IMG/VR virus record: IMGVR_UViG_3300019874_000004
Span: 871 to 64,870 of that record
Direction: 5' to 3' (one strand)
Origin: a virus
Taxonomy: Duplodnaviria; Caudoviricetes
DNA length: 64,000 bases
The notes beneath the pieces were generated by a model. The model worked only from the letters and a program-made list of their open reading frames with translations, did no database searches and was not told where the DNA came from. This document shows positions 3,045 to 37,485 of this stretch, one piece after another (within the stretch, counting starts at the first letter, position 1; each line of letters begins with the position of its first letter). The position numbers were made by a program, and so were the translations under genes.

Positions 3045-3916
3045 CAAATACCAGTGCAATACCAATGACGGTTGACGGCGTTCGGCTCGATACCTATGCC
3101 TACAATATCGAGACGCTAGCCGGACGCCTGACTGTTCCAGGTGTCCGGGGCTCCAATGTTACAGTCCCCGGGCAAGACGGCTCGGTCTTCACAGCTAACA
3201 AGGACTGGGACGACGGCAACATGGTCCTGAAGATGTGGGTGCGGGGCTGCGATGTGAATGGGGCTGTCCCCGTTATGTCATCGCAGATGGCTGAGTTCAG
3301 GAGTAACTTAGCAGCTTTGTCGACGATGTTCGGCGTTCGGCACAGGCTTCTGGATATTAGGCAGACTTGGCCTGCGGGCGATATCCAATGGATGAGCGAG
3401 GTTCGAGACGCGTATGACCTCTCTGCCACCGCAGTAAATCCCAAGGCTAGCTTTGCAGTGAACCTCGAGGTCCCTGGTGTATTCGGCCAGGACGTCTCGA
3501 CTTCAGATTACACGTCTGCAGGTGGGCTAGCCCCGGCGGTGACTCTCACCCTTGCAACATATAGCGGCTTAACGGCCCCAATCAACGATGCGATATTGGT
3601 GGTTCGTGGCCCGGCCACAAACCCAAGACTTACAAATGTGGACACAGGGGAATGGGTACAGCTAAACGCAACAATAGGTACTGGAACAGACTGGCGAATC
3701 GATTGTGGCCTGTGGACAACGATAACAGGATCTGCTATTGGGCTGAGTGGGACAACGGGCACAAATCAAGTTGTGAACACAACATTTGCAGGAGGCGGCG
3801 CGAGGTTCTTGAGGCTAACTCCGAAGTCTGGTGGACCACAGATCCGCCTAGACGGGACTAGCTTCAACACCACAACCCAAGTCCTTGCCCGAGCCAAGAG
3901 GAAGTACCTGCTGTGA
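3041..3916 (+). CDS. Distal tail (Dit-like) / minor tail protein
   Basis: 291 aa directly after the TMP with a GTGA overlap; beta-rich composition; standard siphovirus position. Confidence 0.8.
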   Translation: MTNTSAIPMTVDGVRLDTYAYNIETLAGRLTVPGVRGSNVTVPGQDGSVFTANKDWDDGNMVLKMWVRGCDVNGAVPVMSSQMAEFRSNLAALSTMFGVRHRLLDIRQTWPAGDIQWMSEVRDAYDLSATAVNPKASFAVNLEVPGVFGQDVSTSDYTSAGGLAPAVTLTLATYSGLTAPINDAILVVRGPATNPRLTNVDTGEWVQLNATIGTGTDWRIDCGLWTTITGSAIGLSGTTGTNQVVNTTFAGGGARFLRLTPKSGGPQIRLDGTSFNTTTQVLARAKRKYLL

Positions 3917-32532: not shown

Positions 32533-33108
32533 ATGAGGATCAACAAATTCGATAAGACCCCATCCATAGGAAAGCAATTGCCAATGAAGCCGGGTGAGAC
32601 GGCTTATCTGATTGAGTTGGACGGCACTGAGAATGCCGAATTCAAGCAGATTCTAGAGGGCTGGATCGACGCCCTAGAGATGCACGAATATGCCAGCCAT
32701 GACTACAAGAACCGGGAGCTGTTTGGGCTAGGTATCCGAGGTGAGTTCGTCGGGTTCTGGCGCAAGGCACAGAAGCTGCACGCAGAGGTCTGGGAGCAGA
32801 AACTCAAGCTCACCCGGGAAGGCGTTCAGGAAGTCCTCATGGATTGCATGGGTGCGGTCGGCCTCATGCTATCTGAGCAGAGGAAGAACAAAGACGGCTA
32901 CAGCGCCAGCTGGAGAGACAACCACAACAACAAGCCGACCTTCGGCCCAGGGCCGGACGACAGGCTAGCCACATTCAAACCTGCACGACAGGGGGCAACA
33001 AGCGGCACCTTCACCAACAGGACGGCATCCGGCCGACGACCTGAGGAACACGCTATAGATTGCCGCTGCCAGAAGTGCAACGACATCACCTGGGCGACAC
33101 GCGGATGA
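32533..33108 (+). CDS. Nucleotide-modification-associated domain (Nmad1/DUF1599-like)
   Basis: HDY..GLGIRG..RK..KL..E..EVLMD pattern; context next to HAD and MTase genes. Confidence 0.6.
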   Translation: MRINKFDKTPSIGKQLPMKPGETAYLIELDGTENAEFKQILEGWIDALEMHEYASHDYKNRELFGLGIRGEFVGFWRKAQKLHAEVWEQKLKLTREGVQEVLMDCMGAVGLMLSEQRKNKDGYSASWRDNHNNKPTFGPGPDDRLATFKPARQGATSGTFTNRTASGRRPEEHAIDCRCQKCNDITWATRG

Positions 33109-34034
33109 AATTTGTATCTCTACACAGCCACTCTACCTACAGCTACATGGATGGATTTGCGCTGCCAGAGGTACACGTCAAGCGAGTCGCAGAGCTAGGG
33201 ATGTCGGCGCTGGCATTAACAGAACATGGAAACGTTAGCAGTCATGTCAAGCTGGAGCTGGCTGCGGCCAAGGAGGGGATCAAGCCAATCTTTGGACTGG
33301 AAGCCTACACCGCTCCCGCAGACATGCGTGAGACTAAAAATCTGCGCAAATGGCATCAGACGATTGTGGCGATGAATCATGAAGGATATCAGAACCTTAA
33401 CCGTCTCGTTACGAGATCCTGGGATGAGGGCTTCTACAGGTGGCCGACGGTTACAGGACCTATGCTCAAGGATCTCCACAGAGGGCTTATCGTCACTAGC
33501 GGGTGTTCAGATAGCCTCGTTAATTGCTCCCTCCTTGGTGGAAAAGGAATTGAAGAGGCAGATGCAGGAGAGAGCAGAGCAATTGGCGTTATACGCAGGT
33601 ATAAGCGACTCCTCGGCGACAGATATTATCTCGAAGTTCAGCGTTTTCCAGAACTCGAAAGGACGCGCACACTCAACGCTTGGCTGGCCCAAGCCAGTAA
33701 GCGCACTGGGGTCCCCCTTGTTGCTACAGCTGATGTGCACTACCCCTTCGGTGAAGACAACCAGATGCAGAAGATTCTGCATGCAGCAGGACGCAACACT
33801 GGTACTGTCGCTGCTGCGGAGGCAGGGTGGGAATACGACATTCTCCTCACTTACCCAACAAGCGACCAGCAAATCCGCGAACAACTTATGGGAACAGGGC
33901 TATCGCGTAGCCAGGCGGAGGGAGCGATTGAGAATACGTCGGTTATAGCAGGACGATGTAATGTAGAGATCCCCAAGATGGAAAGGGTTCGGTTCCCTGG
34001 AACCATTAGGGACATGGAGGCAGAATGGGGATGA
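33105..34034 (+). CDS. dnaE: DNA polymerase III alpha, N-terminal piece (PHP domain only)
   Basis: SLHSHSTYSYMDG, LTEHG, GLEAY, WHQT, SGC, TADVHY: complete PHP metal-ligand set. Confidence 0.92.
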   Translation: MKFVSLHSHSTYSYMDGFALPEVHVKRVAELGMSALALTEHGNVSSHVKLELAAAKEGIKPIFGLEAYTAPADMRETKNLRKWHQTIVAMNHEGYQNLNRLVTRSWDEGFYRWPTVTGPMLKDLHRGLIVTSGCSDSLVNCSLLGGKGIEEADAGESRAIGVIRRYKRLLGDRYYLEVQRFPELERTRTLNAWLAQASKRTGVPLVATADVHYPFGEDNQMQKILHAAGRNTGTVAAAEAGWEYDILLTYPTSDQQIREQLMGTGLSRSQAEGAIENTSVIAGRCNVEIPKMERVRFPGTIRDMEAEWG

Positions 34035-34366
34035 CTGTTCGTGGACTTCACCTCAGGGTGATCCGCGCTAAGGGATGGGCTAGCGAATGGCCTTGTGTAT
34101 CCTGTAAGAAGACCAGTAATAAGAAATGGGGCATGGACTGGTCTCGGATTCATGGACGCTCAGGCCGGGACATCGAGGACTATGAGCCGATGTGTCGTAA
34201 GTGTCATATGCTGTATGACAGGTCAACTCTTATCGCAAGCGACGTTATAGAAATCAGAAGAATGATTGCGCGTGGAATGCCGCAGATTGATATTGCGCAT
34301 GCATTTCATGTGAGTCAGATGACCATCAGTCGTATCAATACCGGGCAGACTTGGAGTCACATCTAA
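34031..34366 (+). mobile_element. Free-standing HNH homing endonuclease with C-terminal HTH, inserted between the dnaE pieces
   Basis: CVSC..PMCRKCHMLYD; QIDIAHAFHVSQMTISRI HTH; ATGA and TAATG overlaps with both dnaE ORFs. Confidence 0.85.
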
Positions 34367-37300
34367 TGGACCGCCTAGATGAGTCAGTCCCTAGTATTGA
34401 TCTCTACTGGGAATGGCTTAGGAAGGGCTGGCACTATCGAGGGATGCACAAGCTCCCAAAGAAGATCCGTAAGGAGAACACGGACCGAGTCCATCATGAA
34501 TCAGAGATGATCATCGACAAGGACTTTGTTGATTACTTCCTGATGCTCTCTGACGCAGTCCGGGCCTGTAAGGATAATGGCATACCAGTCGGCCCGGCTC
34601 GTGGATCGGCTGCGGCTTCTCTAGTGTGCTATCTACTCAGGATCACTGAAGTCAACCCGATGCACTATCCCCTGATGCTATTCAGTCGGTTTGTTGACCC
34701 GAACCGCTTCGATCTCCCGGATGTAGACCTAGACTTTGATGATGATCTCCGGGACTATGTCCGCCAGCACCTAATCACGAGATATGGAGTTGACCGTGTT
34801 GGTAATATTGGAACCTTCACAAGATATCGTGGTAAGAATGCCATCGACGACGTTGCCCGGGTATATCAGATACCAAAGTATGACATTGCCCAGGTCAAAG
34901 ACCTTCTCGTCACAAGGTCGGGTGGTGACAGCCGGTTCGATGCGAGCATCCAGGATACCCTTGAGATGTTCCCCCAGGCTAAAGAGGTCTTCGATCGCCA
35001 TCCCAGGCTATACGAGAGCCTCAAGCTGGAGGGGAACTACAAAGGGTTCGGAGTCCACGCTGCAGGGCTTGTCGTGGGAGCTACGGCGCTCGTCGACTCA
35101 GTCGCAACGTATGTTAAGCATGATGTTGGCAAGAACAAAAACACGCTAGCAGTTCTCTCGGTCGACAAGTACGACGGCGAGAGCCTGGGGATGCTGAAGC
35201 TAGATGCACTATCCCTTTCCACAATGGGGATGATCCGACTAGCTATCGGCACGATAGGCATGTCCCTAGAAGAACTGTACGCTGTACCAATGGACGATGC
35301 CCCTACTCTCGCAGCCTTCCACAAAGGAGATGTGAAGGGCATCTTCCAGTTTGACGGCCGGACAATGAAGATGGTCTGTGAGCAGCTCAAGCCAGATGTG
35401 TTCATGGATCTCGCGGCCGTGAACGCATTGTCCCGGCCTGGACCATTGCATTCTGGGTCTACCGGCGACTACATCGCCATACGGTCCGGCGAGATTGAGC
35501 GTGAGTCATTGCATCCACTTGTAGATGCAATTACCGAGATGACTGAAGGCCAGATTATCTATCAAGAGCAGATCCTACAGATCTGTAGAGAGGTGGGGAA
35601 GTTCCCTTGGGTGCACGCCGCAGCGATCCGGAAGATCATATCGCAGAAGAAAGGGGAAGCGGCATTCGAATCGATGTGGATGGACTTCAAGGCTGGAGCG
35701 TCAAGTCAGAACATATCCGAAGAATTATCCAGGCGCATCTGGAACCGAATGGTCACGGCCGGTACATATGCCTTCTGCTGTACAGGGGAGACGATCGTTA
35801 AGACAGGTGGTCGTGGATCACATGGAGGAAAGGAATATGCACTAAGAGATCTGTGGGAGGCATATAACAGCAAGACCTCTCTCGGGGACAAGCTTAGGTA
35901 TGGCCAGAATGGCAAGAGAATCACTCTTCAGCAATTTGATGATGATGGGAGAATCCGTCCAGCGCAATTTCTGTCTATTAAAAGATCTGATGTTAAGATG
36001 CCTGTGTATAGAGTTGAGCTGGAAAATGGCAACTCATTCAATGCAACGCTCATGCATAGGATTCTCACGACAGATGGATACCAGGAGATAGGAGATTTGG
36101 TAGCTGGGGGAACATCCATCATTTGCTGCGGTGAAAGGGAGGGGCAGATCAGATCAACCACATCGCAGAAATATAGGTCTCATGGCGGGCATATGCAAGG
36201 AGAGGGCAATCCTGCATATGTCGATGGTAGATCTATGCATCTCAAGGATGCTCAGAAACAGGTCGCACATAGATCTGGTGGATGCTGTGAGAGGTGTGGA
36301 ACCTCAGGTGATGGTAAGTCTCACTCTCTTGAGTTTGCACATATGCTTTCTCTAGAGTTTAAGCAGGGTGACTACTCCCTGTATCACAATGCAAATAACA
36401 TATTGCATCTGTGCAATTCCTGTCACAAGAAATTTGACTATGAGAAGGGAGAGCGAGTATCACGACACACAGTGGGCTTACCCTCAGAATCCTCTGTGGT
36501 AAATCGCGTCGTGAAGATGAAAAATCTCCAGTGGGTCTATATGCTGGAGATGAATGATGCAAACCACAACTATGTAGCAAATGGTGTTGTGCATCATAAC
36601 AATGTAGCTCATTGTGTGTCGTACTCAATGTTAGGCTTCTGGGCTATGTGGCTAAAAGTTCATCACCCTCTTGCGTTCTATGCCGCCCAGCTACAGAAAG
36701 TGAAGGAGGAACGGCAACTTGAGCTCATGCGAGATATGCAGGACGAGAGGTTTGGGAGATCCTTCCCGGTGCTCCCACCAGACCCAAATCTGTCCGGACT
36801 TACTTGGGCTATTGACCCGTCTGGCAGAGGCGTCATCGCGGGCTTCACGCAGATCCCCGGGATTGGCCTTAGAACAGCAGAGGCAATCATTGAGGAACGC
36901 ACAGGGAACGGAGACTTTGGGTCCTGGGCCGACATCGGCTGCGTGAAGGGAGTCGGGCCCACAACGATTACAAAGATCACTGCATTCTGCAATGCAGAAG
37001 ATCCCTTCGATATCCTCAAGATCAAGAACCAGACCGCGAGGATTAAGCAGTGGCTGTCTATGGGACTGCAAGGTATCCCAATGCCTGACACTGTATCTGA
37101 CACAGTGCCCTATGATAACAAGAAATCATACCATGTGATCATGGGGATTGTGAATCACCGCAACTACCAGGACATGTTTGAGGACCACAGGGCTCGCTAT
37201 GGGGAAGAGCTCAATGTGGATGATGTCAAAGATCCGCACCTCAAGGACAGCATGACCATGTTCATGGAGGACGAGACCGGCCCAATCTCGGTCAAGGTCA

Positions 37301-37485
37301 ACAGATGGACCTACCCCAAGTACAAGGCAGACCTCTGGGGTGTAATTATCGGGCACCACTACATAGTCGCCAAGGTGGTGAAGAACGCATTCTATGGTAA
37401 GAATGTCTCTGTACAAGAACTTTGGGTAATTGACCCCTGTGATGACAAGTGCACTGCATACAAGGAAACAGAGGCAACTGACTGA
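34366..37485 (+). CDS. dnaE: DNA polymerase III alpha, catalytic piece, containing an intein
   Basis: GPARGSAAASL, LPDVDLDFDD, HAAG, KLDAL, GIFQF, IIYQEQIL, YAF|NVAH, GFTQIPGIG, OB-fold tail. Confidence 0.95.
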   Translation: MDRLDESVPSIDLYWEWLRKGWHYRGMHKLPKKIRKENTDRVHHESEMIIDKDFVDYFLMLSDAVRACKDNGIPVGPARGSAAASLVCYLLRITEVNPMHYPLMLFSRFVDPNRFDLPDVDLDFDDDLRDYVRQHLITRYGVDRVGNIGTFTRYRGKNAIDDVARVYQIPKYDIAQVKDLLVTRSGGDSRFDASIQDTLEMFPQAKEVFDRHPRLYESLKLEGNYKGFGVHAAGLVVGATALVDSVATYVKHDVGKNKNTLAVLSVDKYDGESLGMLKLDALSLSTMGMIRLAIGTIGMSLEELYAVPMDDAPTLAAFHKGDVKGIFQFDGRTMKMVCEQLKPDVFMDLAAVNALSRPGPLHSGSTGDYIAIRSGEIERESLHPLVDAITEMTEGQIIYQEQILQICREVGKFPWVHAAAIRKIISQKKGEAAFESMWMDFKAGASSQNISEELSRRIWNRMVTAGTYAFCCTGETIVKTGGRGSHGGKEYALRDLWEAYNSKTSLGDKLRYGQNGKRITLQQFDDDGRIRPAQFLSIKRSDVKMPVYRVELENGNSFNATLMHRILTTDGYQEIGDLVAGGTSIICCGEREGQIRSTTSQKYRSHGGHMQGEGNPAYVDGRSMHLKDAQKQVAHRSGGCCERCGTSGDGKSHSLEFAHMLSLEFKQGDYSLYHNANNILHLCNSCHKKFDYEKGERVSRHTVGLPSESSVVNRVVKMKNLQWVYMLEMNDANHNYVANGVVHHNNVAHCVSYSMLGFWAMWLKVHHPLAFYAAQLQKVKEERQLELMRDMQDERFGRSFPVLPPDPNLSGLTWAIDPSGRGVIAGFTQIPGIGLRTAEAIIEERTGNGDFGSWADIGCVKGVGPTTITKITAFCNAEDPFDILKIKNQTARIKQWLSMGLQGIPMPDTVSDTVPYDNKKSYHVIMGIVNHRNYQDMFEDHRARYGEELNVDDVKDPHLKDSMTMFMEDETGPISVKVNRWTYPKYKADLWGVIIGHHYIVAKVVKNAFYGKNVSVQELWVIDPCDDKCTAYKETEATD
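35776..36600 (+). mobile_element. Intein (275 aa) with HNH endonuclease; atypical C-terminal junction
   Basis: Block A CCTGETIV; block B TLMHRIL; GEGNPAY and CERC..H..LCNSCH HNH; block F/G VYMLEM..HNYVANGVVHHN; next residue is Asn. Confidence 0.9.

What the first reader, a model, noticed from the sequence alone, without database searches (positions are those of the whole stretch)
35776..36603. Intein in DnaE with no +1 nucleophile (Asn+1) and no block-F Asp
Seen: the in-frame 275-aa insert begins CCTGETIV, has TLMH (block B) and ends VYMLEM..HNYVANGVVHHN. Removing it restores AGTYAF|NVAHCVSY, the conserved DnaE YxFNxxH motif, so the first C-extein residue is Asn (AAT, 36601-36603). Established: class 1-3 inteins need Cys/Ser/Thr at +1, and the block-F position usually written VYD is here VYM. 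Inference: two residues used in branch formation are lost together in an essential enzyme. The element therefore either splices by a non-canonical route (for example aminolysis of the Cys1 thioester by the freed Asn alpha-amine, as proposed for some bacterial intein-like Hint domains) or only self-cleaves, leaving a polymerase that works as non-covalent pieces. It also carries an HNH rather than a LAGLIDADG endonuclease.
Basis: partly seen in the sequence, partly recalled or inferred. Interest (0 to 1): 0.85.

Follow-up and report, generated by a model that had tools for sequence, protein, structure and literature searches.

The report
Phage DnaE intein without +1 nucleophile
The only DNA polymerase gene of this soil phage is interrupted by a mobile self-splicing protein element (an intein) that is followed by asparagine instead of the Cys/Ser/Thr that every described intein uses to rejoin its host protein; about thirty related phages, one of them cultured, share this, so the polymerase must mature by an unusual chemistry.

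Summary
Bases 35776-36600 encode a 275-aa HNH-bearing intein (Cys1, block B TLMH, terminal HHN). It sits between F and N of the DnaE finger motif YAF|NVAH, and about 100 intein-less homologues read straight through that site.

The +1 Asn is not an error. At least 27 homologous inteins at the same site have Asn+1, one has Val, and one a residue downstream has Ala. The members placed on the tree form one clade (SH-aLRT 99) nested among canonical Ser+1 DnaE inteins that insert two residues downstream.

The clade keeps Cys1, the block-B His and the terminal Asn, and it is under purifying selection. Its block-F Asp is relaxed.

Cultured Gordonia phage Wojtek carries the intein. Sister phages 94.5% identical lack it, and a synonymous co-conversion tract flanks the site. 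That indicates recent homing in a viable phage with no family A polymerase.

Best reading (about 0.5): Cys1 thioester plus Asn cyclisation, then ligation by the freed alpha-amine, as proposed for A-type BIL domains. The main rival is double cleavage giving a two-piece polymerase. No paper describing this was found. The scan has flagged the same lineage on three other genomes.

The parts
34351..37485 (+). DnaE (Pol III alpha) core precursor ORF, 1044 aa, without a PHP domain
   Evidence: Pfam DNA_pol3_alpha, DNA_pol3_finger, HHH_6.
34351..35775 (+). N-extein, ending ...TAGTYAF
   Evidence: collinear with intein-less homologues up to F.
35776..36600 (+). 275-aa intein (HINT splicing domain with an inserted HNH endonuclease)
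   Evidence: Intein_splicing, 33 bits; AF2 pLDDT 86; Ssp/Npu DnaB and Mtu RecA inteins, TM 0.8-0.89; 405 relatives.
35776..35778 (+). Cys1 codon (TGC), block A CCTGETIV
   Evidence: Cys1 is invariant in all 87 aligned relatives.
36046..36057 (+). Block B TLMH (intein residues 91-94)
   Evidence: His94 is invariant. Residue 91 is S13/T3 in the Asn+1 group and T68/S3 in the Ser+1 group.
36217..36534 (+). HNH homing endonuclease domain (CxxC...H...N...CxxCH)
   Evidence: phrog_119 HNH, E 7e-9, residues 148-253. C171, C174, H189, N208, C213, C216 and H217 are invariant or nearly so.
36535..36552 (+). Block F VYMLEM; Met (36541-36543) replaces the usual Asp
   Evidence: Asp in 85 of 88 relatives outside the clade. 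Within the clade: D10, M5, E4, S1.
36580..36600 (+). Block G NGVVHHN with penultimate His and terminal Asn
   Evidence: Asn275 is invariant; His274 is present in 15 of 16.
36601..36603 (+). +1 residue Asn (AAT), the N of the DnaE F-N-x-A-H motif
   Evidence: The intein-less allele L004 uses the same AAT GTA GC.
36601..37485 (+). C-extein NVAHCVSY... to the stop codon
33060..34034 (+). Separate PHP-domain ORF (context: the polymerase is already encoded in pieces)
   Evidence: PF02811, 1e-34.
34025..34366 (+). 113-aa ORF between the PHP and core genes, with weak HNH-endonuclease/HTH matches (context)

Best explanation
This is a functional, mobile, HNH-carrying intein from a distinct lineage that has no Cys/Ser/Thr at +1. 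It sits two residues upstream of the site used by its canonical relatives, directly in front of the invariant Asn of the DnaE finger motif. Shown by the data: the lineage has a single origin, keeps Cys1, the block-B His, the penultimate His and the terminal Asn, is under purifying selection, still homes, and lives in a viable phage with no family A polymerase. Inferred mechanism: an N-to-S acyl shift at Cys1 makes the thioester. The terminal Asn cyclises and releases the C-extein. The freed alpha-amine of Asn+1 attacks the thioester directly. This rejoins YAF-NVAH without a branched intermediate, the route proposed for A-type bacterial intein-like (BIL) domains.
For: Boundaries and Asn+1 are certain. 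At least 27 sequences carry the homologous intein at F|N with Asn+1. One sequence has Ala+1 at N|A (P0146) and one has Val+1 (P0269). None has Cys, Ser or Thr. The 19 Asn+1 members plus the Ala+1 member placed on the tree form one clade (SH-aLRT 99) nested within Ser+1 DnaE HNH inteins. Cys1, His94 and Asn275 are invariant and His274 is present in 15 of 16. The intein changes more slowly at non-synonymous sites than its host polymerase: pN 0.091 against 0.15-0.16, with pS about 0.72 (dN/dS about 0.04). For the window and its nearest relative the figures are 0.30 against 0.33-0.43. The block-F Asp, which serves the branch step, is relaxed only in this clade: 5 replacements on 10.8 units of tree against 3 on 59.6 (P 0.003). 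The model has a HINT fold. Cultured Gordonia phage Wojtek carries the intein. Sister phages LuckyLeo and Apeppi (94.5% nt identity) lack it. Of 66 flank mismatches, 16 lie within -19..+45 and all 16 are synonymous (P 3e-7). This phage genome (64,870 nt, CheckV 100%) has one DnaE and no family A or B polymerase. Wojtek has no family A polymerase. Precedent: A-type BILs form the thioester, cyclise Asn and ligate through the free amine (PMC4031507, citing Dassa 2004 and Aranko 2013).
Against: No product has been observed. [quoted passage not shown] Generic aminolysis does not explain why the lineage sits at F|N rather than at the homologous x|A site. That the phage DnaE is essential is assumed, not tested. 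Family B polymerase was not searched in Wojtek.
Confidence: 0.5

Rival explanations
1. Cleavage only. The thioester is hydrolysed and Asn cyclisation frees the C-extein. The intein drops out and the polymerase works as non-covalently associated fragments.
For: HINT domains without a +1 nucleophile give mostly cleavage products. This polymerase already tolerates being encoded in pieces, with PHP as a separate ORF. Conservation of Cys1 and the terminal Asn fits this reading as well as it fits splicing.
Against: The break would fall inside the most conserved finger motif rather than at a domain boundary. The flanking extein residues are identical to those of intein-less alleles. The lineage homes into contiguous genes of otherwise ordinary phages such as Wojtek with no other visible adaptation.
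Confidence: 0.22
2. Asn+1 is itself the branch nucleophile. Its side-chain amide attacks the Cys1 thioester to form an imide-linked branch. After Asn cyclisation the branch resolves by an N-to-N acyl shift.
For: This would explain the two-residue slide from the canonical K|S site to a position directly in front of Asn. HINT active sites already drive an Asn side-chain amide to attack a carbonyl at the C-terminal junction (established mechanism, PMC4031507).
Against: Clade members P0146 (+1 Ala, +1..+5 AAHAA) and P0269 (+1 Val) have no such side chain. The Asn is invariant in intein-less DnaE too, so its conservation says nothing about the intein. There is no chemical precedent in inteins.
Confidence: 0.08
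3. A remote C-extein nucleophile (Cys/Ser at +5, NVAH-C) takes the N-extein, followed by a long-range acyl shift to the Asn+1 amine.
For: Position +5 is Cys or Ser in most clade members.
Against: Position +5 is Ala in L011 and P0171, and the equivalent residue is Ala in P0146. Intein-less alleles show the same C/S/A mix, so there is no enrichment.
Confidence: 0.05
4. There is no processing that matters. Either the insert is retained or dead and the phage relies on the host polymerase, or the DnaE tolerates the insert.
For: Essentiality of the phage DnaE has not been tested.
Against: Catalytic residues are invariant across 35-60% identical members, and dN/dS is about 0.04. The insert splits a conserved motif. 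The phage keeps a complete PHP plus core DnaE as its only polymerase.
Confidence: 0.08
5. Sequencing or assembly artefact at the +1 codon.
For: None.
Against: At least 27 independent sequences from different samples have Asn+1, including a finished cultured phage genome.
Confidence: 0.01

Closest known systems
Canonical class 1 HNH-bearing DnaE inteins at the Y-G-F-N-K|S-H site (76 of 108 relatives analysed)
   Same: They share the intein family (35-44% identity, E down to 1e-56) and the same HNH insertion. They also share Cys1, block B T/SxxH and terminal HN, and they sit in the same host motif.
   Different: They insert two residues downstream and use the motif's Ser as +1. Their block-F Asp is nearly invariant and the residue before the penultimate His is Ser/Thr. 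The window's clade has Asn (rarely Ala or Val) at +1, a relaxed block-F Asp, and often His before the penultimate His.
A-type bacterial intein-like (BIL) domains (Amitai 2003; Dassa 2004; Aranko 2013, via PMC4031507)
   Same: Both are HINT domains with an N-terminal Cys and a C-terminal His-Asn but no +1 nucleophile. The proposed chemistry is the same: thioester, Asn cyclisation, ligation by the free amine.
   Different: BILs lie in variable regions of non-conserved bacterial proteins, have no homing endonuclease, and mainly cleave. This element sits in a conserved motif of an essential replication gene, has intein-less alleles, carries an HNH nuclease and homes. By sequence and phylogeny it is an intein, not a BIL.
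Cyanobacterial split DnaE intein (Ssp/Npu DnaE; native flanks AEY | CFN)
   Same: It uses the same DnaE motif. Its site (Y|x-F-N) is also used by six Ser+1 and one Thr+1 members of this HNH-intein family.
   Different: It inserts two residues upstream of the window's site, the extein supplies Cys at +1, and the intein is split with no endonuclease.
Mycobacteriophage ThyX (TdS) HNH inteins (Bixzunavirus; Kelley et al. 2016, PMC5050341)
   Same: These are actinophage HNH inteins, about 25% identical over the full length.
   Different: They sit in a different host protein and have a canonical Ser at +1.
IMG/VR relatives L030 (Y-G-F|C-S-A-H), L038 (F-N|C-S-H) and L025 (F-N|S-A-H)
   Same: They belong to the same intein family. 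L030 uses the same F|x site as the window, and L038 and L025 use the N|x site of P0146.
   Different: In these the extein residue has been replaced by Cys or Ser, which is the canonical solution. They form a separate, distant branch of the tree.

Membership tests
Intein (class 1) | HINT fold | tested here: met
   AF2 model pLDDT 86. Foldseek top hits are Ssp/Npu DnaB and Mtu RecA inteins, TM 0.8-0.89, prob 1.00.
Intein (class 1) | Cys/Ser at position 1, block B T/SxxH, C-terminal His-Asn | tested here: met
   Cys1, TLMH and HHN are read from the sequence. They are conserved across 87 relatives.
Intein (class 1) | Cys, Ser or Thr as first C-extein residue (+1) | tested here: not met
   Position +1 is Asn (AAT, 36601-36603). 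The same holds in at least 27 clade members; the other two have Ala or Val.
Intein (class 1) | In-frame insertion at a conserved host-protein site, with intein-less alleles | tested here: met
   About 100 intein-less homologues read through with no gap. Wojtek and LuckyLeo differ by presence or absence of the intein.
Intein (class 1) | Mobility through a homing endonuclease | tested here: met
   The HNH domain has invariant catalytic and zinc ligands. A synonymous co-conversion tract flanks the insertion in Wojtek. Nuclease activity itself was not assayed.
Intein (class 1) | Block F Asp | tested here: not met
   Met in the window. This is not strictly defining, since the Asp is conserved in about 60% of inteins (PMC7765530). 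It is relaxed in this clade only.
Intein (class 1) | Protein splicing (excision with ligation of the exteins) | not testable with these tools
   Needs expression and mass spectrometry.
Class 3 intein | No position-1 nucleophile; WCT triplet with Cys at block F position 4 | tested here: not met
   Cys1 is present, and block F position 4 is Met/Asp/Glu/Ser.
A-type BIL domain | C-terminal His-Asn and no +1 nucleophile | tested here: met
A-type BIL domain | Located in variable regions of non-conserved bacterial proteins, with no homing endonuclease | tested here: not met
   It sits in a conserved DnaE motif of phages and carries an HNH nuclease. It is nested phylogenetically within true DnaE inteins.
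HNH (His-Me finger) endonuclease | HNH catalytic motif with CxxC...CxxC zinc ligands | tested here: met
   PHROG HNH families score E 7e-9. Pfam HNH is weak at E 0.0096. H189, N208 and H217 plus four Cys are invariant or nearly so.

The most novel reading that the evidence does not exclude
The +1 Asn is itself the branch nucleophile. Its side-chain amide attacks the Cys1 thioester to give an imide-linked branched intermediate, which resolves by an N-to-N acyl shift once the intein's terminal Asn has cyclised. This would be a fourth splicing chemistry. It would also explain why the lineage slid two residues upstream to sit directly in front of Asn.
Probability: 0.08. Interest if true: 0.95.

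Novelty: new variant of a known kind. Interest (0 to 1): 0.8.

Why it matters
The textbook rule is that a true intein needs Cys, Ser or Thr at +1. This rule also restricts where engineered inteins can be placed and leaves a scar residue. Here a natural, mobile, selectively maintained intein lineage sits in an essential polymerase without that residue. If it splices, it shows that nucleophile-free (traceless) ligation can be efficient enough for viability. It would define a further mechanistic class that bridges inteins and BIL domains, and it would offer a scaffold for scarless protein ligation. If it only cleaves, it shows a replicative polymerase working when cut through its most conserved finger motif. 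It would also be a natural intermediate on the way to split genes. In either case the cultured phage Wojtek and its intein-less sisters make the question directly testable.

Tried and rejected
- **Sequencing error at AAT:** rejected, because Asn+1 recurs in at least 27 independent sequences.
- **Sliding the junction:** rejected. No residue is shared between the insert ends and the flanks, and the alignment to intein-less alleles has no gap.
- **The second Cys of CCTGE as a special nucleophile:** rejected. Among clade members it is also seen only in L011 and P0270.
- **Cys/Ser at +5 as nucleophile:** disfavoured, because L011, P0171 and P0146 have Ala there.
- **Sequence search of the PDB with the intein:** only marginal hits, E above 0.1. 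Fold search was needed.
- **Pfam Intein_splicing:** scores just under its cut-off.
- **Single-sequence scan of IMG/VR:** found only the window's own record. A profile scan found 31 loci.
- **Scan of 185,579 bacterial and archaeal species genomes with the clade profile:** no confirmed relative. No chromosomal or prophage copy was seen with those patterns, which is weak negative evidence.
- **dN/dS between the window and its nearest relative:** synonymous sites are saturated, so only pN could be compared.
- **Literature:** seven searches found no description of an intein with Asn, or any non-nucleophile, at +1, nor of an intein in Wojtek or in DnaE-like phage polymerases. An eighth query was rejected for syntax. 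The library lacks most subscription journals, so this is not proof of novelty.
- **Model geometry:** distances between Cys1, Asn+1 and Cys+5 could not be measured, because model coordinates are not returned.

Full report
**What is in the window**

The ORF 34351-37485 (+) encodes a 1044-aa DnaE core. Pfam finds DNA_pol3_alpha at 6e-61, DNA_pol3_finger at 4e-35 and HHH domains.

Residues 476-750 (nt 35776-36600) form an in-frame 275-aa insert. It begins CCTGETIV, contains TLMH, and ends WVYMLEM...NGVVHHN. The next residues are NVAHCVSY. The codons are TGC (35776-35778) for Cys1, CAT CAT AAC (36592-36600) for HHN, and AAT (36601-36603) for +1 Asn.

The insert matches Pfam Intein_splicing at 33.4 bits, just under the 35.8 cut-off. 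It also matches PHROG HNH endonuclease families at E 7e-9.

An AlphaFold2 model of the insert with short flanks is confident (pLDDT 86). Its best structural matches are mini-inteins: Ssp and Npu DnaB and Mtu RecA, with target TM 0.8-0.89 and probability 1.00.

**The boundaries are exact and Asn+1 is real**

About 100 intein-less homologues, up to 85% identical, read ...TAGTYAF-N[VIA]AH[CSA].SY with no gap. No residue is shared between the ends of the insert and its flanks, so the junction cannot be shifted.

The nearest intein-less allele (L004) uses the same AAT GTA GC after TTC.

Every other DnaE carrying a homologous insert at this site also has Asn at +1:
- 12 among the closest full-length homologues;
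- more among representatives of a 1.84-billion-protein library;
- IMG/VR loci L011 and L027;
- P0270-P0275 and P0277.

That makes at least 27 sequences. A sequencing error is excluded.

**Family context**

A phmmer search with the intein alone found 405 relatives. Nearly all those examined are HNH inteins inside the same DnaE finger motif, Y-G/A-F-N-K-S/A-H. They occupy four adjacent sites:
- **(d) FNK|SH**, +1 Ser: 76 of 108 analysed.
- **(a) Y|SFNKAH**, +1 Ser or Thr: 7 members. By established knowledge of its AEY|CFN flanks, this is the site of the cyanobacterial split DnaE intein.
- **(b) F|N**, +1 Asn: 19 in the tree.
- **(c) FN|x**: P0146 with +1 Ala.

A separate, distant branch uses sites b and c canonically, with the extein residue replaced by a nucleophile: L030 (YGF|CSAH), L038 (FN|CSH) and L025 (FN|SAH). 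One further clade-like sequence, P0269, has Val at +1 and Ala at block F position 4.

**Single origin**

In maximum-likelihood trees of the inteins, all Asn+1 members plus P0146 form one clade. Support is SH-aLRT 97 with 89 rows and 99 with 108 rows. The clade is nested among Ser+1 inteins of site d.

The host DnaEs of this clade all carry F-N-x-A-H. They have Ala where the canonical site supplies Ser.

**The splicing machinery is maintained**

Clade members are only 35-60% identical. Even so, Cys1, the block-B His (position 94) and the terminal Asn are invariant, and the penultimate His is kept in 15 of 16.

Between P0084 and P0085, synonymous sites are near saturation (pS 0.72). The intein's non-synonymous divergence (pN 0.091, dN/dS about 0.04) is lower than that of the flanking polymerase (0.154 and 0.164).

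Between the window and its nearest relative, pN is 0.30 for the intein and 0.33-0.43 for the exteins. Both the HINT and the HNH parts are constrained.

**What has changed in the active site**

- **Block F position 4** is Asp in 85 of 88 relatives outside the clade. Inside it the counts are D10, M5, E4, S1.
  - By parsimony this is 5 replacements on 10.8 units of branch length, against 3 on 59.6 (binomial P 0.003).
  - This Asp is tied to the branch-forming step in class 1 inteins (PMC7765530). Its relaxation fits disuse of that step.
- **The residue before the penultimate His** is Ser/Thr in the Ser+1 group (70 of 71). In the clade it is mostly His.
- **The block B Thr** is mostly Ser in the clade.

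**Mobility and viability**

Among 50,697 phage records, only Gordonia phage Wojtek (OL455890.1, gene 72, annotated "DnaE-like DNA polymerase III alpha") carries a clade member: TYSF|CVTGDTVL...NGFIHHN|NIAHCVSY.

Its sister phages LuckyLeo and Apeppi, 94.5% identical in the flanks, have the uninterrupted gene.

Of 66 mismatches in 1203 nt of flank, 16 lie between -19 and +45 of the insertion point. All 16 are synonymous, including AGC/TCG serine codon swaps (binomial P 3e-7). This is the pattern expected of a co-conversion tract or a recoded endonuclease target, so the intein arrived recently by homing.

Wojtek is a plaque-forming isolate and has no family A polymerase.

The window's genome is an IMG/VR record of 64,870 nt rated 100% complete. 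It has one DnaE and no family A or B polymerase.

**Mechanism**

Shown: both junction chemistries are under selection (Cys1 with the block-B His, and His-Asn at the C terminus), and no +1 side-chain nucleophile exists.

Inferred: the thioester forms at Cys1, the terminal Asn cyclises, and the released alpha-amine of Asn+1 attacks the thioester. This is the route proposed for A-type BIL domains (Mills, Johnson and Perler 2014, PMC4031507, citing Dassa 2004 and Aranko 2013).

The chief rival is double cleavage with a non-covalent two-piece polymerase. BILs mostly cleave (PMC7664689), and this phage already encodes its PHP domain separately.

A remote Cys/Ser at +5 is unlikely. L011, P0171 and P0146 have Ala there, and intein-less alleles show the same residue mix.

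An Asn side-chain nucleophile would explain the slide to F|N. The Ala+1 and Val+1 members argue against it, though each is a single metagenomic sequence.

**Comparison with what is known**

The element is an intein by fold, motifs, phylogeny, insertion logic and mobility. It fails one defining feature of all three described intein classes, the +1 Cys/Ser/Thr (PMC4031507).

It resembles A-type BILs in chemistry. It is not a BIL, because it sits in a conserved site of an essential gene, has intein-less alleles and carries a homing endonuclease.

HNH inteins are already known (Dalgaard 1997, cited in PMC5050341).

Seven literature searches found no report of such an intein; an eighth query was rejected for syntax. 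The library is incomplete.

Earlier notes of this scan flagged the same lineage on three other genomes and reached the same reading. I re-derived those claims here independently, and the notes are not counted as evidence.

**Caveats**

No processing product has been observed. The essentiality of the phage DnaE is assumed. Family B polymerase was not searched in Wojtek. P0146 and P0269 are singletons and could be decaying copies.

Noticed in passing
window 33060-34366: The DnaE is encoded in pieces. A PHP-domain ORF (33060-34034) is followed by a 113-aa ORF (34025-34366) with weak HNH-endonuclease/HTH matches, and then by the core ORF. The intein-less relative L004 also has separate PHP and core genes but no ORF between them. 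Other close relatives (P0004-P0010, about 1070 aa) have PHP fused to the core, so the split is polymorphic.
   Followed up: partly
L018, L025, L030, L038 and P0159, P0168, P0182, P0185, P0193, P0243: This HNH-intein family has moved repeatedly between four adjacent insertion points within one 5-residue DnaE motif (Y|, F|, N|, K|). Site a alone needs at least 3-5 changes on the tree. Outside the Asn+1 clade, the extein residue at +1 is always Ser, Thr or Cys, sometimes at the cost of a conserved motif residue (L030: the motif Asn is replaced by Cys).
   Followed up: partly
L008:2436-3269 (P0146) and P0269: Two singleton relatives lack a nucleophile in other ways. P0146 sits at YAFN|AAHAA with +1 Ala. 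P0269 sits at YAF|VYSH with +1 Val, which replaces the otherwise invariant motif Asn, and has Ala at block F position 4.
   Followed up: partly
L027:~900-1806: This Asn+1 clade member has an extra Cys-rich (CxxC...CxxC) segment inserted near the intein N terminus, an atypical block A (CLNENTLV) and a penultimate Ala (SAN).
   Followed up: no
L001:2980-3000 and 3813-3843 (Wojtek) versus L009 (LuckyLeo): Synonymous recoding is dense around the intein insertion point, including serine AGC/TCG swaps. It may be a co-conversion tract, protection against the intein's own HNH nuclease, or both.
   Followed up: partly
L002 (Mycobacterium phage Norm and other Bixzunavirus ThyX genes): The ThyX (TdS) inteins of cluster C mycobacteriophages are distant relatives (25% identity) with the same HNH architecture and a canonical Ser+1. 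Some records annotate the gene only as an HNH endonuclease.
   Followed up: no
OL455890.1 gene 72 (L001:718-4758): The GenBank annotation of Wojtek gene 72 does not mention the intein.
   Followed up: no
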